This document shows positions 15,836 through 26,324 of a stretch of DNA of 29,051 bases, piece by piece. The stretch's first letter is position 1. Each line of letters begins with the position of its first letter. Origin of the DNA: Octopus sinensis (Eukaryota). Position numbers and translations under genes: made by a program. The stretch lies in contig NW_021833184.1 of NCBI RefSeq assembly GCF_006345805.1, positions 1-29,051 of the forward strand, read 5' to 3'. Below the pieces are notes generated by a model. That model did not search any database and was not told the origin of the DNA. It saw nothing but the letters and a program-made list of their open reading frames with translations.

Positions 15836-15881
<46 letters not shown>

Positions 15882-15882
<1 letters not shown>

Positions 15883-17240
15883 GAAAGACTCTCATATAAT
15901 TCTTAATTACTGGTTATTCTTTAGCTGAAAGCAGGCAATGACAAATTACCAAAGGTTTCGAGTAGTGCCTTCTCCTGTGACTCAATACTCTCTTTAGAAT
16001 GTGAGCTGTACTTAACAATTCTGGCTTCTGGATCACTTCAAGCCTGACAGCAGCTCCAATATTCTTAATATTCTTTTCAAAGCCCTTGGAAACTGCTCCT
16101 AATGCTCCAATTACCACCGGTATCACCATTACTTTCTTCATGCCCCATAACTTTCCTATTTCATCCTGCAGTGGATGGTATTTCTCAGTCTTTTCTGCTT
16201 CCTTACATTTCACCCTCGATTTTCCTGGTATTGCAACATCTGTTATCTTTACTTCTTTTTCATTTTTATGGACGAGCATGATATCTGGTCATCTTGCCTC
16301 TATGACTTGGTTGCACTGTGTGTTAAAATCCCAGGGTATTTTGTAATGTTCATTTTCCATTACTCCTTCTGGCTTGTGCTCATATCATTGTTCAGGTCTC
16401 TTGAGGTTTGCTTTACCACACAACAGCCAGTGGACATATCTGGCCACATGTCTCCTTTTGTATTCGCATTGTGCGAGCTTACAGCACTCACTAACAATAT
16501 GGCTTATACTTTCTCCCTTCTCAGAGCACATCCTACACTGTGATGAGTCAGTGCTTTTATCAATGTGATATCTGGAGTAATTTGTTCTGAGAACTTGTTC
16601 CTGAGCACTGCACACTAATGCTTCAGTGGGCCCTTTTAAGTCACCTTTCTGCAGTCATTGCCAGGTTCTATTCCAATTAATCTCATCTTTATTCTTCAAG
16701 AACTGACTGTGCATTTTCTTTTCCTGCCAAATTTTCTTCATCTTTTCTGTCTGATCTTTCTTAAATCATATTGGATTTACGGTTTTGTTCACTTTTAAGG
16801 TTCCCTGCATTTTCACTGCTTCAATCATTTCTTCTTTACTCTCTTCCACATACCAAACCAGGCTATTCTCCTCTTCCCTTACACAACCTTCACAACACAC
16901 CAATCCCCGTCCTCCTTCTTTCCTCTTTACATACAATCTTGACACATCACTCTAGGAGTGTAGTTCCTTGTTCATTGTCATTAATTTACGTGTTCTCCTA
17001 TCTAGCTCTTGTGATTCCTGCTCCTTCCAAGATACGATTCCTACCCCATGTCTCATCAAAGCAATCGTCCACATGTTCGTTCTAATCTTATAGCGACCAT
17101 CTTGTGTTCATTCATCTTATCTTTTCCAATGATACCTAGATACTTATATCGTTCCTCTGTGGGACCCCTGACAGCAGACCACTGCCTGATCTCAGAGAAT
17201 CTACCAGAGCAAGCAAGACTGAGCACTTGGAGAAGTAAAA
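15882..17240 (-). mobile_element. R4/Dong-type LINE, 5'-truncated and decayed (RT C-terminus, CCHC knuckle, restriction-like endonuclease)
   Basis: YKYLGI; ELDRRTRKLMTM...SDVSRLYVKRKEGGRGL; CRMCSEKGESISHIVSEC; RRHVARYVHW; PDIMLV...ITDVAIP...EKY..L...VIPVVIGALG. The 3' end abuts (TAA)n. Confidence 0.93.
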
Positions 17241-18800: not shown

Positions 18801-19323
18801 TTAAGGAAGCACATAAGATTGGAATGAAACATTATTTGTATGATGATGATAATGATCACTTATAACCATCATGTGTTGTCTAGACAAGTGTACACACACA
18901 CACACACACAAACGTTCATACAGACATATATATACACAACAGGATTCCACACAGTTTCCATGTATGAAATCCACTTGAAACGCATTGGTCAACCTGTGCC
19001 TATGGTATCAGAGAATGTAGAAAATTATTGCCTCCCCTATATTCATCATCATCATCATCATTTAATGTCCACTTTCCACTTGCATGGGTTGGACGAGACA
19101 TGTTGCGAGAGATTCTTCTACAGATGGATGCCCTTCCTGTCACCAACCTTCACCTGTTTCCAGTCAAAGTAATATTCCTCTATGGCTAAACAGGGGTTTC
19201 CATTCCCCACCCACCTGAAATGTTATTTTAATCATTCCCAAAAGCCCTTGTTATTACAGACAATTACTTCAGACTCACCACCACCACCAATGCCACCACC
19301 ATTTTGGTTATCTCTATTTCCAG

Positions 19324-19423
19324 ATCTTTCTATTTGGAGAATTACTTTCAGAGATATGTTACCATTTGTTAGAACACACATCCATTGAAGAAGCACATCT
19401 ATCTTTGGTACTCCTAGTAGTAC
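19324..19423 (+). other. Candidate exon (one of three related copies)
   Basis: Acceptor tctctatttccag and donor tac|gtatgt; phase-0 frame IFLFGELLSEICYHLLEHTSIEEAHLSLVLLVV. Product unrecognised. Confidence 0.35.
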
Positions 19424-19678
19424 GTATGTTCCTTGATAACACTATCTGGCAGATTGATCTGGATTTTCTTTCGAATGAATAATCTTACACCAAAATATGG
19501 ACATTTTGGAAGTTTCTGACATTTTTCTGCTCCATCTTCCTCTACCTTGTTCTGTTGAAGTTCTTATATTGTTGTTAGTATTATCAAATATTTCTTATAC
19601 TATGATACATTATTACTTTGAATCTCGTACCCCACACCCCTAACTGACGTCTCTGTGGCAAATACAAGAAATCATTAT

Positions 19679-19710
<32 letters not shown>

Positions 19711-20894
19711 TCATCATCATTATAGTTCACGTTAGCAACAGCGCTGGTGGTGGTGGTGATGGTGGTAGCAGTAGAGGAAGCTGTAGAAATATTGCTGTCA
19801 AATCTACCCGTTATCTACCCGGATACATGACAGCTTAACTGAAGAAGCTGTGGTGTTTATATGTATATATATAGAGAGATTATTTCTGGTTGTATGGTCT
19901 TTAATTCTTAAATGATAACAACACACACACAGACTTGCTGTTTGCATCCTACCAAACATATATATACACACATACACATGCACACATAAAGCTTCTTATA
20001 AATGCTTGTGTAAGCAGCACCCATACACATACACGTGTCTGTGTGTCTATTGTGTCTATTTATGTTATATATTATATATATATATATAACATATATATAT
20101 GTATATATATATAAAATATGTATGTATATATATGTATATATATGTATATATATAGTGAAGTATAGAGAGAGATATGTAACTTCGAGGAATATCTAAAAGC
20201 CATTTGAAACATTACCTGATACAGAACTCTTTAAGGATTTTAGCATTAAATATTTTTTAAATGTTTCTTTGTATTTATTATTGGTTTGTGTGTGTGTGTG
20301 TGCTCACAAGTATATGTATATGTATAGGTAGATGAGTGTGTGTATGTTTTTACACATACACAAATGCATGTGTATATATATTTATAGTGTGTGTGTGTGT
20401 GTGTGTGTGTATGTATATGCTCTCAAGTATTTGCATATACCTATTTATATGTATAAGTAGATGTTTGTGAGTGTGTATACCGACACACACAGAAACACAC
20501 ACACAAATGTATGCGTATATATGGCTGCCTCAGACAAACTTTTACAAAGGCTTTCTGTCCCTATCTCATTTGATTGTTACATGTAGATATCCTTCGAGAG
20601 AATTTTAAGGTGGGGCATTTAAGCTTATGACGTCGCATGATCCTCATCATCAGCATCCTCCACTTTGTCACCATCCTCCCTCCTCCCCTTCCTCCTCTCC
20701 TCCTCCTCATCATCAACATCGTCATCATTATCTCCATCATCAACATAACATTGTCTCAGATTTTATACTTTCTTTGTTACACATAAAAATTATCAGCATT
20801 GACATCTTCTAATTGGTCTCATGTGATACTTTTATTGGTGTGTGTGTGTGTGTGTGTAACAAGTCCCTCCACACACACACACACACACACACAC

Positions 20895-21400
20895 ACCATC
20901 ATCATCGTCATCGTTTAACGTCCATTTTCCATGCTGGCATGGGTTGGATGGTTTGACTGAGGTCTGGAGAACCAGCGGCTGCACCAGGCACCAATTTGAT
21001 CTGGTAATGTTTCTACAGCGTAGTGGGTGCTTTTTATGTACCACCATCACAGGAGTCATTCAAGAAGGTCTGCCATTGATCATGTTCGGATGGTGCTTTT
21101 TACGTGCCACCAGCACGGCAACCAGTCAGGGAGTACTGGCATTGGTCACATCATGCAGTCTACCTTTCATCCTGAACGAGAGGCCCTTAGTTTGCCCAGG
21201 CTATTCTTATTCTAGCTGCTACACTCTCAGAGCAACCACACCCACTACAGACTTGGTCGTCTAGGTAGCGAAATTTATCAACTACTTCTAGTTTTTCTCC
21301 CTGGCATGTGATGGAATCGGTTTTCTGTATATCTTCAGTGTTTATTTCCCCTGTGCAACTGCCACACACAAAAACTATCTTCCTAGTTTGCCTTCCTTTG
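20895..21400 (-). mobile_element. RTE LINE remnant (RT fragment plus 3' tail)
   Basis: CQGEKLEVVDKFRYLDDQVCSGCGCSESVAARIRIAWAN is the RTE RT F.YLG...RI..AW region; joined to the (GAT)n-tailed UTR. Confidence 0.85.
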
Positions 21401-21570
21401 ATATTGCTACCAGGGCACTGTTGATTCAGGTAGCTGGGACCTCAATTGGGTCAACCTTCAGTGGGCTCTCCTCCTCCCATTCATTCTCTACATTTAGCAA
21501 TCTTTCATAATGGCATCATGCACACATGCATCTATCTATCTATCTATCTAACTTTTTGTCTGTTTGTCTG

Positions 21571-21639
<69 letters not shown>

Positions 21640-21657
21640 GTATCTGTGTGTGTGTGT

Positions 21658-21716
<59 letters not shown>

Positions 21717-21717
<1 letters not shown>

Positions 21718-22048
21718 TCTTTACTCTTTCACTGGTTTCAATCATTTGACTGCGGCCATGCTGGAGCACTGCCTTTAGTTGAGAAAATCAAAGTAACACA
21801 CCAGCATTGGTTGTCAAGTGATGCTGCGGGGGACAAACACAGACCCACAAACGTATACACACACACATATATACATACATACATATATATATATACGACA
21901 GGCTTCTTTCAGTTTCCTTCTACCAAATCGACTCACAAGGCTTTGGTCGGCCCAAGGCTATAGCAGAAGACACTCACCCAAGTTGCCACGCAGTGGGACT
22001 AAACTCGGAACCATGTGGTTGGTTAGCAAGCTACTTACCACACAACCA
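21717..22048 (-). mobile_element. SINE family B, internally deleted
   Basis: Tail, internal microsatellite and head are all reverse complements of family B. Confidence 0.85.
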
Positions 22049-22890
22049 CTTGTAGATAAACATTTCACATGCATATATAGATACAAGCAATTATTTAACA
22101 GGCACAACCTAAGGGTCTCCTCTAGTTGTGCACCTAATGTAAAAAGCATTTTAACAAGCACCCACAATACAAGGGAGGAGGCAGGTTGTTCTTGCAGGCT
22201 ATAAATTAACTGTCCACTAGGAAGCCGATGCAAGGCTGAAGGAGTCATCTATGAAGCTATGATGACACCTAGACCTGCTATCCACATTAGCAGCAATGTA
22301 CCATCCAACAACAGTATTAGCAGATTAACCAGATCAAATGCCAGTACAATCATTACAGCCTGAGATGATGACCAGTCCAAGACCAGCATCACAGAGGATG
22401 TAACCAATAACCTCAGCACCACTGCCACAGATGCTGAACAAACCATTATCATAGACACAGATAGAGTGACCAAACCTGCACCATATGGTACCACAAGTAC
22501 AATCGCCGTACCTAGAGATGATGACCAATCCAGGAGCAACAACACAGAGGAGGTATCCAGCATTCTCACTAACACCACCACAGATGATGACCAAGCAATT
22601 ATCATTGACACTGATGGGATGACCAGCCGCACACTATATGTTACCACCAGCCAAACCAGCACTAATGCTGGCAGCTACATTACCAACCATATGACCAGAA
22701 AAACTGCTGGATCATCACACCATATAGATAGCATCAGCAACGGTGTTAACAGCAGCATCCCCAGGCCTGGAGCCTAGCAAAGATATACCAGGAGTGTGAA
22801 TATAGCCATATCTCAGGTTTATGAATATATCGGATCAGCTAGGACATCTTTCAAATGACGCTTCTGCAACCACCAGTCACCCTTTGGTTT
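22049..22890 (+). mobile_element. Penelope-like element remnant: linker + GIY-YIG endonuclease with a large in-frame insert
   Basis: Single frame with no frameshifts: LVDKHF...KQLFNRHNLRVSSSCAPNVKSIL...CSCRL*INCPLGSRCKAEGVIYEA [insert] VYEYIGSARTSFK*RFCNHQSPF. Four point stops. Confidence 0.88.
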
Positions 22891-22910
22891 GTTGACTTTA
22901 ACCCTATTTT

Positions 22911-23456
22911 TCAAGTATCCATGATTGAGACCTTTTTGCACCCAGCCATTCAAAGCAGACCTCACACATGGTTCCAGCAAAATGGGGCAACTGCTCATAT
23001 TTTGAGAGAAACAATGCAGTTGCTACAGCAGTGCTTTGGAGAGAGAATAATCTCCCACTTCCAGCAATGTCAACTGGCCTTCCCCAGACTTGACTGGCCC
23101 AGATTTTTTCTTGTAGGGATGCCTTAAAGAGAGGGTTTACATCAACAAACCAGAGACCCTGGTGCAACTGAAGAAGAACATCAATAGAGAAATCAGAGAA
23201 GTGGTGTCTGAAACTCTTGAGGGTGTTATGATGCAAGTTTTGGAAAGAGCATAACGGGCATGTGTAGCTGAAAATGACTGCCACATTTAAGCAATGTCAT
23301 CTTTCAAATGTGATGTAGGGGTGTTGGAAAATTTGACTTGTGAATATTAATTTCCATTCTGTCCTTTATATTGTATCAAAATTCCCTGCATTTATTTGTA
23401 AAGTTAAGGAAGTTATTAAAAATTGAAACCCATCAGTGACTTTTGGGACACCCTAT
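22911..23456 (+). mobile_element. Tc1/mariner DD41D (rosa-like) 3' remnant with right end
   Basis: WFQQNGATAH...GERIISH...HLSNVIFQM*; ends ttttgggacaccc followed by TA. Homologous to 3473-3972. Confidence 0.87.
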
Positions 23457-23467
23457 ATATATATACT

Positions 23468-23568
23468 CTTTATATAAAAGCAACAGAAATATAACAAAAG
23501 CTGTTACTCAGAGTTTCACGTTCCCGTTCATTGGACATTTGTTATATTTCTGATGCTTTTAAATAAAG
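23468..23568 (-). ncRNA. Mutated minimal type-I hammerhead ribozyme (Penelope-type)
   Basis: Minus RNA: UGU-CCAAUGA-ACG(GGAA)CGU-GAA-ACUC(U)GAGU-A-ACA, closed by a ~30-bp stem I. The core deviates from CUGANGA at positions 4 and 5. Confidence 0.7.
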
Positions 23569-23771
23569 CGTATTACTCTACCTCTGGTATTTGTGTACTC
23601 TTTTTTCCACCTTGTTTCACATTTATGTGCTTTCTCTGGTATATATATATATATATAGATAGATAATTAAAATTTAAATAATGAGGGAGATAAATTTAAT
23701 TAATATCAATTTAAAACCAGTAGCCTAGCATACAAAAATCTGAAAAATCAGAGAAAATTCTAATACATGTG

Positions 23772-23873
23772 TATATTTAAAGGGCAGAACCACTAGGTTG
23801 TCAGCCGTATGCTAGAAGGTGATCTACTTCTAGCATACAGCTGACCACCTAGTGGTTCTGCCCTTTAAATATA
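23772..23873. repeat. Fold-back hairpin, 47-bp arms
   Basis: 23772-23818 versus 23827-23873, 45/47 complementary, 8-nt loop. Confidence 0.95.
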
Positions 23874-23924
23874 TATATATAAATATATGTATGTATGCAT
23901 GCATGTATGTATATATGTATACTA

Positions 23925-24131
23925 AGGTGGCAAACTGGTAGAATCATATGCACACCAGGCAAAATTGTTTGTGGCATTTCGTTCATCTTTATGTAGTGAG
24001 TTCAAATGCTATTGAGGTCAACTTTGCCATTTATTTTTCTGGAGTCGATAAAATAAATACCAGTTAAATACTGGGGAGGGGTCAATATAATCAATTTCTC
24101 CCCTACACCTGAACTTGCTAGCCTTGTGCCA
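23925..24131 (+). mobile_element. SINE family A, diverged
   Basis: Colinear with 10968-11183. Confidence 0.75.
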
Positions 24132-24329
24132 CACACGCATATTTATATATATATATATATAGGTGCCCCAGCATGGCCACAGCTCATTAGCTGAAACTGG
24201 AAAAATCAAAATCAAATCATATATAAATAAATTTATATAAATAAGGATAAGATTGTTAATTTAATTATCGATCTTATCAAGTCGCCAGCATGGGAATAAA
24301 AACCTTCAAAGGTAATAATTATTATTAAA

Positions 24330-24370
24330 ATTATAATTTAGGGTATCTCTTAGATACCCTAAATTATAAT
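24330..24370. repeat. Perfect hairpin, 19-bp arms
   Basis: attataatttagggtatct-ctt-agataccctaaattataat. Confidence 0.92.
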
Positions 24371-24769
24371 ATATATATAAATATTTGTGAGTAATGTAAA
24401 ATTCTGGAATTTCCTGGAAACTAACGATAGTTTGTGGTACTACTAACTTATGCATACAGACACACAGACACACTGCACACACACGCTTCTGCGACACTGC
24501 TGTCAACACCAACTGCACATCTGTGCACAATTTTGTCGCAGTAATATCCATTGCACAGATGCAACATGCAGGTGTCGTGCACTTACGTGACACTTACAGA
24601 TGCAGACTTGACACACATTAAGTTGGCACGCACAGATGTGTGCGCAAAAACTAATGCAGTTAGTTACATCGATTCTGCGCTGTGCAACGACAGTAACTGC
24701 ATTGAGAATGTCAGCTGTAATGATGATGAGATTGTCATCGTGGTTGTCATCGCGTATGTTCAACGATGC

Positions 24770-25990
24770 TGCCACCACCACCATCATCATCATCACTATC
24801 ATCATCATGATGACAACGACCACCACCACCACCTCCATCATCATCGTTCACCATGGCCATCATCACCACCACCACCACCACCACCACCACGCCACCAACA
24901 CCATCGTCACTAATACAGCCTCAGTCATCATCATTATCATAAGCACCACCATAATCACTACCACCACCCTCATCATCATCATCATCACCACCACCTCCAT
25001 TATGACCATCATTGTCATCATGATCAACATCATCATCACCCCCCCCCCACACCACCAACACTATCATCGCCAGCACAGCCACCATCTTCATTATTATCAC
25101 CATCGCCACTACCATCAACACCACCATCATCATCATCATCATCCTCATCAGCAGCACCACCACCACCACCATGATCACCATAAACACTAATACCACAACC
25201 ATCATCGTCATCATCATCATCTTCAACTAAAGTGATGACAGTGACACACTGGTAGAAAGGGGTGGGGGTGAGTGATGGGGCCAACAACTCCAGCAGAGCT
25301 TAATGATAATAGCAATGTGAGGCAAGTAAAGGGGATGACATCACATCATCAACATCACCATCATCATCATCATCATTGTCACTACCACTGTCATTGGTCA
25401 TCACCATCATCATCGTTGTCATCAATATCATCAAGAGTGACATAAAGACAGAGAGGGAGGTTGGAGGGGGAGAATCAGCAATTGATATAACCACAACAAC
25501 AACAGCAGCGTTTGGGCGTCATTTGGAGACATCGTCATCATCATCGTCATCACCATCATAAAGAACAGTGACAAGTGCAATAGCACAACTGCAACATCAA
25601 CAGCAACAACAACAAGAACTAGTGTCATGGTAATGAAACAAAACAATAGCAAGAAATAAGTTAAGTGCATCGACAGCAGCATCAACAACATAAACTACTC
25701 CCCCACCCACCACCACTACCACCACTTCCGCCGCTGCCATCACCACCTCCACCCCTACCACTACCATCATCGGCTCCTGTCAACAACAGTAACATCAACA
25801 ATAATAACATACAGAGTAGAATAGCAAAACTGTTGACGACATTTACGGCAATTTAAGTAAACGTGATGTTGATGACGATAATGATGAGGATGATGACGAT
25901 GATGATGACGATGACGGTGGTGGTTGCAGTGATGAACATGATGAATGTGTTGTGACCGCGATGACTACGACGATGATGATGATGACAGTA
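24770..25990. repeat. (CAT)n/(CAC)n/(CAA)n/(GAT)n trinucleotide low-complexity field
   Basis: Seen directly. Confidence 0.9.
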
Positions 25991-26324
25991 ATACAATTAT
26001 GGTTTCCCTTCTGTGTTCACAGTGTTGTGCTGGGGAATTGTTTTCTCACTTCACCAAATCCTGGGTGGCAGAGGGGCCAGAACAATATCAAACAATACAC
26101 CTTCCTTCCTTCCTTTATAATCACCAGCTTTTTTGTCTCTCCAAAACTCCACCCCTTTCAGGGTATTATGTTGTTTAAATTTTGTTGTCAGTTGTTATTG
26201 GTTTTTTTTTATTGTCCACAGACTTTTTTTTTTTTGTGCGTGTGCTAAGTCCCACTTGTCCTTTGATTTGTATCATCATTTTTTCGTTTTGTAATTGGCC
26301 CTTGTGTAATTGGCCCTGGAGTGA

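What the first reader, a model, noticed from the sequence alone, without database searches (positions are those of the whole stretch)
22049..22890. Penelope-like GIY-YIG nuclease split by a 191-codon in-frame Thr/Ser/Asp-rich repeat domain
Seen: VIY (22244-22252) and YIG (22826-22834) lie in one frame 573 nt apart, with no frameshift and only two stops in between (TGA 22361, where the sister repeat has AGA; TAG 22775). The insert holds two diverged 153-bp/51-aa repeats starting at 22343 and 22496 (STIITA*DDDQSKTSITEDVTNNLSTTATDAEQTIIIDTDRVT / STIAVPRDDDQSRSNNTEEVSSILTNTTTDDDQAIIIDTDGMT). Known: GIY and YIG are adjacent beta strands, normally about 10-11 residues apart. The upstream CxCx5C-PLG-x2-C linker resembles Naiad-type Penelope elements as I recall them. 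Inference: the ancestral element encoded a nuclease with a large disordered, mucin-like loop in its catalytic hairpin, possibly an undescribed subfamily or captured host sequence. Alternatively, it is a retained intron: tctcag|GTT at 22816 is acceptor-like and phase 0, but the candidate donor (aat|gtacca, 22298) is weak.
Basis: partly seen in the sequence, partly recalled or inferred. Interest (0 to 1): 0.85.

Follow-up and report, generated by a model that had tools for sequence, protein, structure and literature searches.

The report
Penelope nuclease with giant family-wide loop
This is a broken copy of an old jumping-gene family, likely from an octopus, whose many copies carry a roughly 190-residue low-complexity stretch inside their DNA-cutting enzyme; it was likely translated as a floppy loop that the enzyme tolerated, far longer than in any relative examined here.

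Summary
Observation confirmed: VIY (22244) and YIG (22826) lie in one frame, 191 codons apart, with two stops and a 153-bp duplication. The element is a truncated, decayed Penelope-like retroelement of the Hydra clade, not Naiad; the closest published family is Hydra-1_Obim (41 of 70 residues, by eye). The insert belongs to the family: contigs from five organism labels cover all of it at multi-copy depth, other copies run from flank into insert, and most read AGA at the 22361 stop. It looks coding (codon periodicity; 2 stops against 10.6 expected; no pyrimidine tract), but the repeats show no amino-acid conservation (P about 0.5). In relatives the spacer is 11-21 residues in 236 of 237 measured; one intact nuclease has a 76-residue Thr/Asn-rich loop there and is predicted to fold like I-TevI around it. 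Best reading: a frame-preserving, disordered expansion of the hairpin turn, tolerated rather than functional. Not shown: an intact family ORF, RT, activity, the fate of the 22775 stop, or splicing. New variant of a known kind; moderate interest.

The parts
22049..22186 (+). Segment between RT thumb and nuclease linker of a 5'-truncated Hydra-clade Penelope-like element (LVDKHF..FNRHN..SCAPN)
   Evidence: Profile match E 1.9e-22 for 22049-22273; 349 relatives at E<=0.001; matches Fig. S7 Hydra block
22187..22231 (+). CxCX5C-P-x4-C linker, with a stop at 22202 in one of the five variable positions
   Evidence: C47, C49, C55, P56, C61 invariant in 50 sequences
22244..22252 (+). GIY motif (VIY), first strand of the hairpin
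22253..22825 (+). 191-codon Thr/Ser/Ile/Asp/Asn-rich spacer, multi-copy across the family, predicted disordered
22343..22495 (+). 153-bp repeat 1 (TGA at 22361; most other copies read AGA)
22496..22648 (+). 153-bp repeat 2, 73% identical to repeat 1
22826..22884 (+). YIG motif and Arg helix (R at 22859, H at 22871; stop at 22856); the copy breaks off here, other copies go on
   Evidence: loose ends at 22878-22884
21900..22048 (+). Upstream neighbour: very high copy SINE-like repeat lacking its last bases and (TA)n tail; not part of the element
   Evidence: Depth about 10^7 and loose ends at 22044-22050; SINE label is my recall
22885..23453 (+). Downstream neighbour: 3' part of a Tc1/mariner-like DNA transposon fused to the truncated nuclease
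   Evidence: WFQQNGATAH and WPSPDLTGPDFFL motifs; class assigned from recalled motifs, no significant Pfam match; junction read through by contigs X4 record 19

Best explanation
This is a truncated, decayed copy of a multi-copy Hydra-clade Penelope-like retroelement family whose copies carry a roughly 190-codon low-complexity stretch between the GIY and YIG motifs, likely translated as a disordered loop that the nuclease is predicted to tolerate. Shown: clade motifs, multi-copy insert joined to both flanks in other copies, codon-like periodicity, stop at 22361 absent from most copies. Inferred mechanism: the hairpin turn grew stepwise in the master lineage by slippage of A-N-C/T triplets, a 153-bp tandem duplication and replacement of segments between subfamilies. 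Because YIG, the Arg helix and the rest of the active site lie downstream, selection would remove frameshifts and stops but leave the loop's amino-acid sequence nearly free. The two strands would still pair and nick the target (likely (TA)n, as reported for the clade) to prime reverse transcription.
For: (1) Contigs of 7 of 7 runs laid (5 organism labels) cover the insert; in run X2 summed depth is 386-3718 across it against 45-66 for single contigs. (2) No depth step at either motif: X2 3818/3064/3663/2714 over 22235-22342 and 1756/3079/2064/2075 over 22748-22855, so no large short-spacer subfamily at >=80% identity is apparent. (3) Diverged copies bridge the junctions: X17 record 9 keeps register over 22103-22701 at about 81% identity; X9 record 27 covers 22703-22878 without gaps; X10 record 5 runs from 22271 to 22884. 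(4) 22361 T>A in 11, 21-23, 18, 6 and 16 contigs of X1, X2, X5, X9, X17; none of 42 listed insert differences creates a stop. (5) Periodicity P 1e-16; purine at codon position 1 is 0.75-0.84 in all four quarters of the insert. (6) Read by eye, 7 loose-end consensi of other subfamilies at 22276, 22575, 22646 (x3), 22701 (x2) have no stop in the nuclease frame and 10 in other frames (table 7; four distinct segments). (7) The same loop is 26 aa and Ser/Thr/Asn-rich in Hydra-1_Obim and 76 aa in the intact P0038, whose model matches I-TevI at Z 8.7, rmsd 2.4, 90 of 92 residues, with the loop at low confidence. (8) The window model has only two strands, at VIY and YIG, pLDDT about 80, residues 91-238 below 50.
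Against: No amino-acid constraint: 26 of 51 identical residues between the repeats against 25.7-25.9 under a neutral null (P 0.53-0.56); 24 of 32 majority differences are non-synonymous. Stop depletion and periodicity are one signal: position-specific composition predicts 2.4 stops, and triplet arrays elsewhere in the window also have open frames. 3 of 9 bridging records differ by a length that is not a multiple of three (+65, -25, -1). No row shows the stops at 22775 or 22856 corrected in other copies. No intact family ORF or RT was seen (searches found none). The structure models borrow their alignment from short-loop relatives, and the window model gave no GIY-YIG match.
Confidence: 0.68

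Rival explanations
1. The insert grew in a nuclease-dead or non-autonomous lineage that was copied in trans by a sister family such as Hydra-1_Obim; the open frame is a by-product of triplet slippage and a relic of earlier coding.
For: No amino-acid constraint; triplet arrays give open frames without coding; all copies seen are decayed (263 of 433 pieces under 90% identity in X2); RT never seen.
Against: The open frame is the nuclease frame, the total length and the duplication are multiples of three; 47 codon types and at most three perfect triplet units in a row; Tyr, Tyr-Gly, Arg and His are kept; other copies continue with the normal post-helix sequence; an intact ORF with a like loop exists (P0038).
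Confidence: 0.17
2. 22298-22816 is a phase-0 spliceosomal intron retained in genomic copies; splicing leaves an 18-residue spacer.
For: GT and AG exist, 519 nt, and 18 residues would fall in the range of relatives. Penelope-like elements can keep introns (recalled; Fig. 1 legend of PMC8557442 marks conserved introns).
Against: T is 18% of the candidate intron against 34% in the window; 44% pyrimidines in the 25 nt before the AG; uniform codon periodicity; P0038 and Hydra-1_Obim show open loops at the same site.
Confidence: 0.09
3. The insert is captured host coding sequence or a separate repeat that entered the ancestor of this family.
For: It is long and internally repeated; 31% of laid pieces in X2 run on into unlike sequence.
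Against: No homologue in Pfam, the 5.8-billion protein set, or the ESM Atlas (weak for low-complexity sequence); insert depth does not exceed flank depth, as an independent repeat would; composition equals that of P0038's loop (TSNDQ 0.50 in both).
Confidence: 0.06

Closest known systems
Hydra-1_Obim (Octopus bimaculoides; Craig et al. 2021, PMC8557442, Files S1, S7, Fig. S7)
   Same: 41 of 70 residues identical without gaps over the flank (by eye); same short linker; other copies of the window's family continue SFRVPERR as it does; its loop is also Ser/Thr/Asn-rich and the longest in that figure.
   Different: Loop 26 residues against 191; no 51-residue repeats; a separate family.
Hydra clade of Penelope-like elements
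   Same: CxCX5C linker, no CCHH, nuclease after the thumb.
   Different: Spacer 11-21 residues in 236 of 237 measurable relatives (369 examined, redundancy not removed).
P0038 (unnamed ENA protein, single sequence, host unknown)
   Same: Low-complexity Thr/Asn/Gln-rich loop at the same site in an intact Hydra-type nuclease.
   Different: 76 residues, no repeats, no evident homology to this insert.
Chlamys and Terminon nucleases with insertions (PMC8557442)
   Same: Large insertions inside a Penelope-type GIY-YIG domain are published.
   Different: They lie after the Arg helix (PHD finger between H and E; Terminon insertions in Fig. S2), not between GIY and YIG.
Naiad clade
   Same: GIY-YIG nuclease with a Cys-rich linker; present in octopus.
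   Different: Naiads have an N-terminal nuclease, CX2-5CxxC and CCHH; none is seen here.

Membership tests
Hydra clade PLE | CxCX5C linker before GIY | tested here: met
   C47-x-C49-x5-C55; definition
Hydra clade PLE | No CCHH motif in the nuclease | tested here: met
   No CxxC between VIY and YIG in the window copy; most copies have one Cys two codons before YIG; second His region is missing from this copy
Hydra clade PLE | Nuclease C-terminal to RT | tested here: met
   The 46 residues before the linker align to the post-thumb segment of full-length RT-EN relatives such as P0024 and P0039
Hydra clade PLE | RT with RWK and DKT motifs; placement in RT phylogeny | not testable with these tools
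   The copy starts at 22049; no genome held
Hydra clade PLE | C-terminal CxxC/CxH, canonical hammerhead, pLTR | not testable with these tools
   The copy ends at 22884; no hammerhead match in 19000-26000, as expected for a 3'-truncated copy
Hydra clade PLE | Insertion into (TA)n | tested here: inconclusive
   The 5' junction lies where the upstream repeat normally ends in (TA)n, but no TA run is left
Naiad clade PLE | N-terminal nuclease with CX2-5CxxC and CCHH | tested here: not met
GIY-YIG nuclease superfamily | GIY Tyr, YIG Tyr-Gly, Arg helix | tested here: met
   Y68, Y260, G262, R271, H275 invariant in 50 sequences including the window; relative P0038 matches I-TevI, T4 EndoII, UvrC
GIY-YIG nuclease superfamily | Metal-binding Glu helix and Asn | not testable with these tools
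   Deleted from this copy; only about 10 further codons of other copies are visible
GIY-YIG nuclease superfamily | Fold match of the window protein itself | tested here: inconclusive
   Half domain only; best Z 2.1; no Pfam match
Spliceosomal intron | Polypyrimidine tract before AG | tested here: not met
   44% pyrimidine, 18% T
Spliceosomal intron | Junction reads in RNA | tested here: inconclusive
   No run on record as RNA

The most novel reading that the evidence does not exclude
An autonomous octopod Hydra family spread to dozens of copies with a working GIY-YIG nuclease whose catalytic hairpin carried a 190-residue, internally repeated, fast-changing disordered arm, the longest GIY-to-YIG spacer found here; the turn is a recurrent expansion site (26, 76, 191 residues), and the arm may have served as a tether or a decoy in conflict with the host.
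Probability: 0.5. Interest if true: 0.58.

Novelty: new variant of a known kind. Interest (0 to 1): 0.42.

Why it matters
If true, the two halves of the GIY-YIG signature can be some 190 residues apart in a mobile nuclease, so profile searches split or miss such elements (Pfam gave nothing; a family profile gave two pieces). It marks the hairpin turn as a natural insertion-tolerant site, of use for engineering GIY-YIG fusions, and gives a graded series (12, 26, 76, 191 residues) for asking how frame-only selection lets disordered loops grow in selfish proteins. It is a fossil family, and no function of the loop is shown, which limits the interest.

Tried and rejected
No genome is held for the window, so no copy-by-copy consensus or dN/dS was possible. 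The window protein with X at stops found nothing in the word-indexed protein set, near or longer lengths, phages, metagenome contigs, or Pfam; the insert found nothing in the ESM Atlas or in 80 related loci by blastn. No RNA holder listed; X4 and X10 are only guessed to be RNA, so their unspliced contigs say nothing on splicing. None of the listed joints skips the whole insert, but only 15 of 203 and 15 of 90 were shown. Foldseek gave no significant match for the P0038 model (T4 EndoII rank 14, E 4); profile search of PDB sequences none; the window model no GIY-YIG match. The Nei-Gojobori ratio 0.56 between the repeats was rejected as evidence: two other frames give 0.61 and 0.48 and the simulation is neutral. 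An excess of majority differences at codon position 2 (6/17/9, P 0.048; 9/18/15, P 0.22 with all rows) is unexplained and may come from table selection. The minus-strand ORF 22249-22674 was not pursued. Viral contigs held no relative. Rfam matches in 19000-26000 are all far below gathering scores. Five literature searches listed no paper on such a loop; Repbase, Dfam and the O. vulgaris repeat library were not available, and the supplement of PMC13282606 was listed but not read, so the family may sit there unremarked.

Full report
Observation. The frame starting at 22049 (+) reads a post-thumb segment, a Cys-rich linker, VIY at 22244, 191 codons, YIG at 22826 and an Arg helix. The spacer has two stops (22361, 22775) against 11 and 20 in the other + frames; shuffles give 10.6 on average, P=0.0006. 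The two 153-bp repeats are real, 73% identical. Two further stops lie in the flanks (22202, 22856). A profile of 20 relatives places the flanks on consecutive positions, 228-309 and 312-336, so the motifs belong to one domain.

Clade. In Craig et al. 2021 (PMC8557442; I saw passages, sections 9 and 11, and supplement parts 1, 2, 52, 54, 55, 58 plus search hits) the CxCX5C linker, absence of CCHH and a C-terminal nuclease define the Hydra clade; Naiads differ on all three. A search with the N-terminal flank, its one stop read through, gave 349 relatives, including full-length RT-EN proteins. The closest is the published Hydra-1_Obim: 41 of 70 residues, no gaps, counted by eye. An octopus host is likely (that match, and an unchecked note on the same genome) but not shown by a tool.

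Anatomy. The copy is cut at both ends. Upstream is a very high copy SINE-like repeat missing its (TA)n tail. At 22884 it is fused to the 3' part of a Tc1/mariner-like element (motifs recalled), while other copies go on with SFRVPERR, like Hydra-1_Obim (loose ends). RT and the Glu/Asn half of the nuclease are absent here.

Is the insert a family feature? No genome was held, so contigs of 7 of 21 listed runs were laid at 80% identity (five organism labels, which may include synonyms). All 7 cover the insert. In X2, summed depth over it is 386-3718 against 45-66 for single contigs, which suggests dozens of copies, though depth is no copy count. There is no step at VIY or at YIG. Copies about 81-85% identical run from flank into insert; one keeps register over 599 nt, one covers 22703-22878 without gaps, one spans 22271-22884 with 65 extra bases. 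The TGA at 22361 is AGA in most contigs of five runs. Against: 3 of 9 bridging records are out of frame, listed indels are single-contig events, nothing is shown for 22775 and 22856, and most joints were not displayed. Most pieces are under 90% identical (263 of 433 in X2), so the family is old; PMC13282606 (passages seen) dates an O. vulgaris Penelope expansion to distance 0.2, which is only consistent.

Coding or intron? The insert has strong three-base periodicity (P 1e-16), even in all four parts, 47 codon types and no perfect triplet run over three units. T is 18%, and there is no pyrimidine tract before the AG. Alternative segments of other subfamilies are open in the nuclease frame (7 strings, 0 stops in frame, 10 out of frame; by eye). 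But periodicity and stop depletion are one signal (2.4 stops expected from position-specific composition), triplet arrays can mimic both, and there is no amino-acid constraint: 26 identical residues between the repeats against 25.7-25.9 by chance, and 24 of 32 majority differences non-synonymous. No RNA run on record was available.

How unusual? Among 369 relatives examined, 237 had a measurable spacer: 63 of 150 and 87 of 118 proteins, 71 of 80 and 16 of 21 loci. 236 were 11-21 residues and one, P0038, 76. The rest lacked a motif match. Redundancy was not removed, and these searches favour short loops. In Fig. S7 Hydra loops are 12-15 residues except Hydra-1_Obim, 26 and Ser/Thr/Asn-rich. P0038 is an intact nuclease whose loop has the same composition as the window's. 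Its model has core pLDDT above 90 and the loop below 50 and matches I-TevI (Z 8.7, rmsd 2.4, 90 of 92), T4 EndoII (7.2) and UvrC (6.0). The window model shows two strands only, at VIY and YIG, around a low-confidence 150-residue stretch, but gave no fold match. Both models lean on short-loop alignments. That GIY and YIG sit on one hairpin is stated in PMC3045582 (passages).

Mechanism. Most likely the hairpin turn grew by in-frame slippage, one 153-bp duplication and segment exchange in an active master lineage. Everything catalytic after the first Tyr lies downstream, so frame was kept while sequence drifted, giving a disordered loop outside a normal fold (0.68). Rivals: growth in a lineage copied in trans (0.17), retained intron (0.09), captured sequence (0.06). 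Growth mechanism, translation, folding and activity are inferred, not shown.

Novelty. Insertions in Penelope-type nucleases are published (Chlamys PHD finger between H and E; Terminons), but after the Arg helix. Five literature searches (listings, with passages of PMC1564403 and bioRxiv 10.64898/2026.07.22.740005) and five look-ups in the scan's notes showed no report of a long GIY-to-YIG loop in this clade; repeat libraries could not be searched. Verdict: new variant of a known kind, interest 0.42.

Noticed in passing
window 15840-16600 (-): C-terminal part of a non-LTR retrotransposon with a Cys/His knuckle and a PD..D restriction-like nuclease motif, ending at an (AAT)n run; resembles R4/Dong elements (recalled). 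Pfam zf-RVT only at E 0.059.
   Followed up: partly
L081 about 980-1180 and L092 about 3050-3275 (linker before the CxC motif): Two intact Hydra-type ORFs carry low-complexity expansions (Asn/Ser/Thr-rich and Pro-rich) in the linker before the Cys motif: a second expansion-prone site.
   Followed up: partly
L081-L101: 21 Hydra-type retroelement loci sit in genomes labelled as bacterial MAGs or symbionts; probably host contamination, as PMC8557442 reports for Naiads.
   Followed up: no
P0044; P0129: P0044 has a loop of at least 69 residues, cut at the sequence end; P0129 is an array of repeats each holding a piece of the Hydra post-thumb motif.
   Followed up: no
window 22646/22647 and 22701/22702: Several contigs in three organisms leave the window sequence at these points with shared alternative sequence: subfamilies with exchanged loop segments.
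   Followed up: partly
window 23785-23860: Inverted repeat around 23790-23856 with a weak Rfam hairpin match far below threshold.
   Followed up: no
window 1266-1666: 168-bp tandem repeat, 2.4 copies, 96% matches.
   Followed up: no
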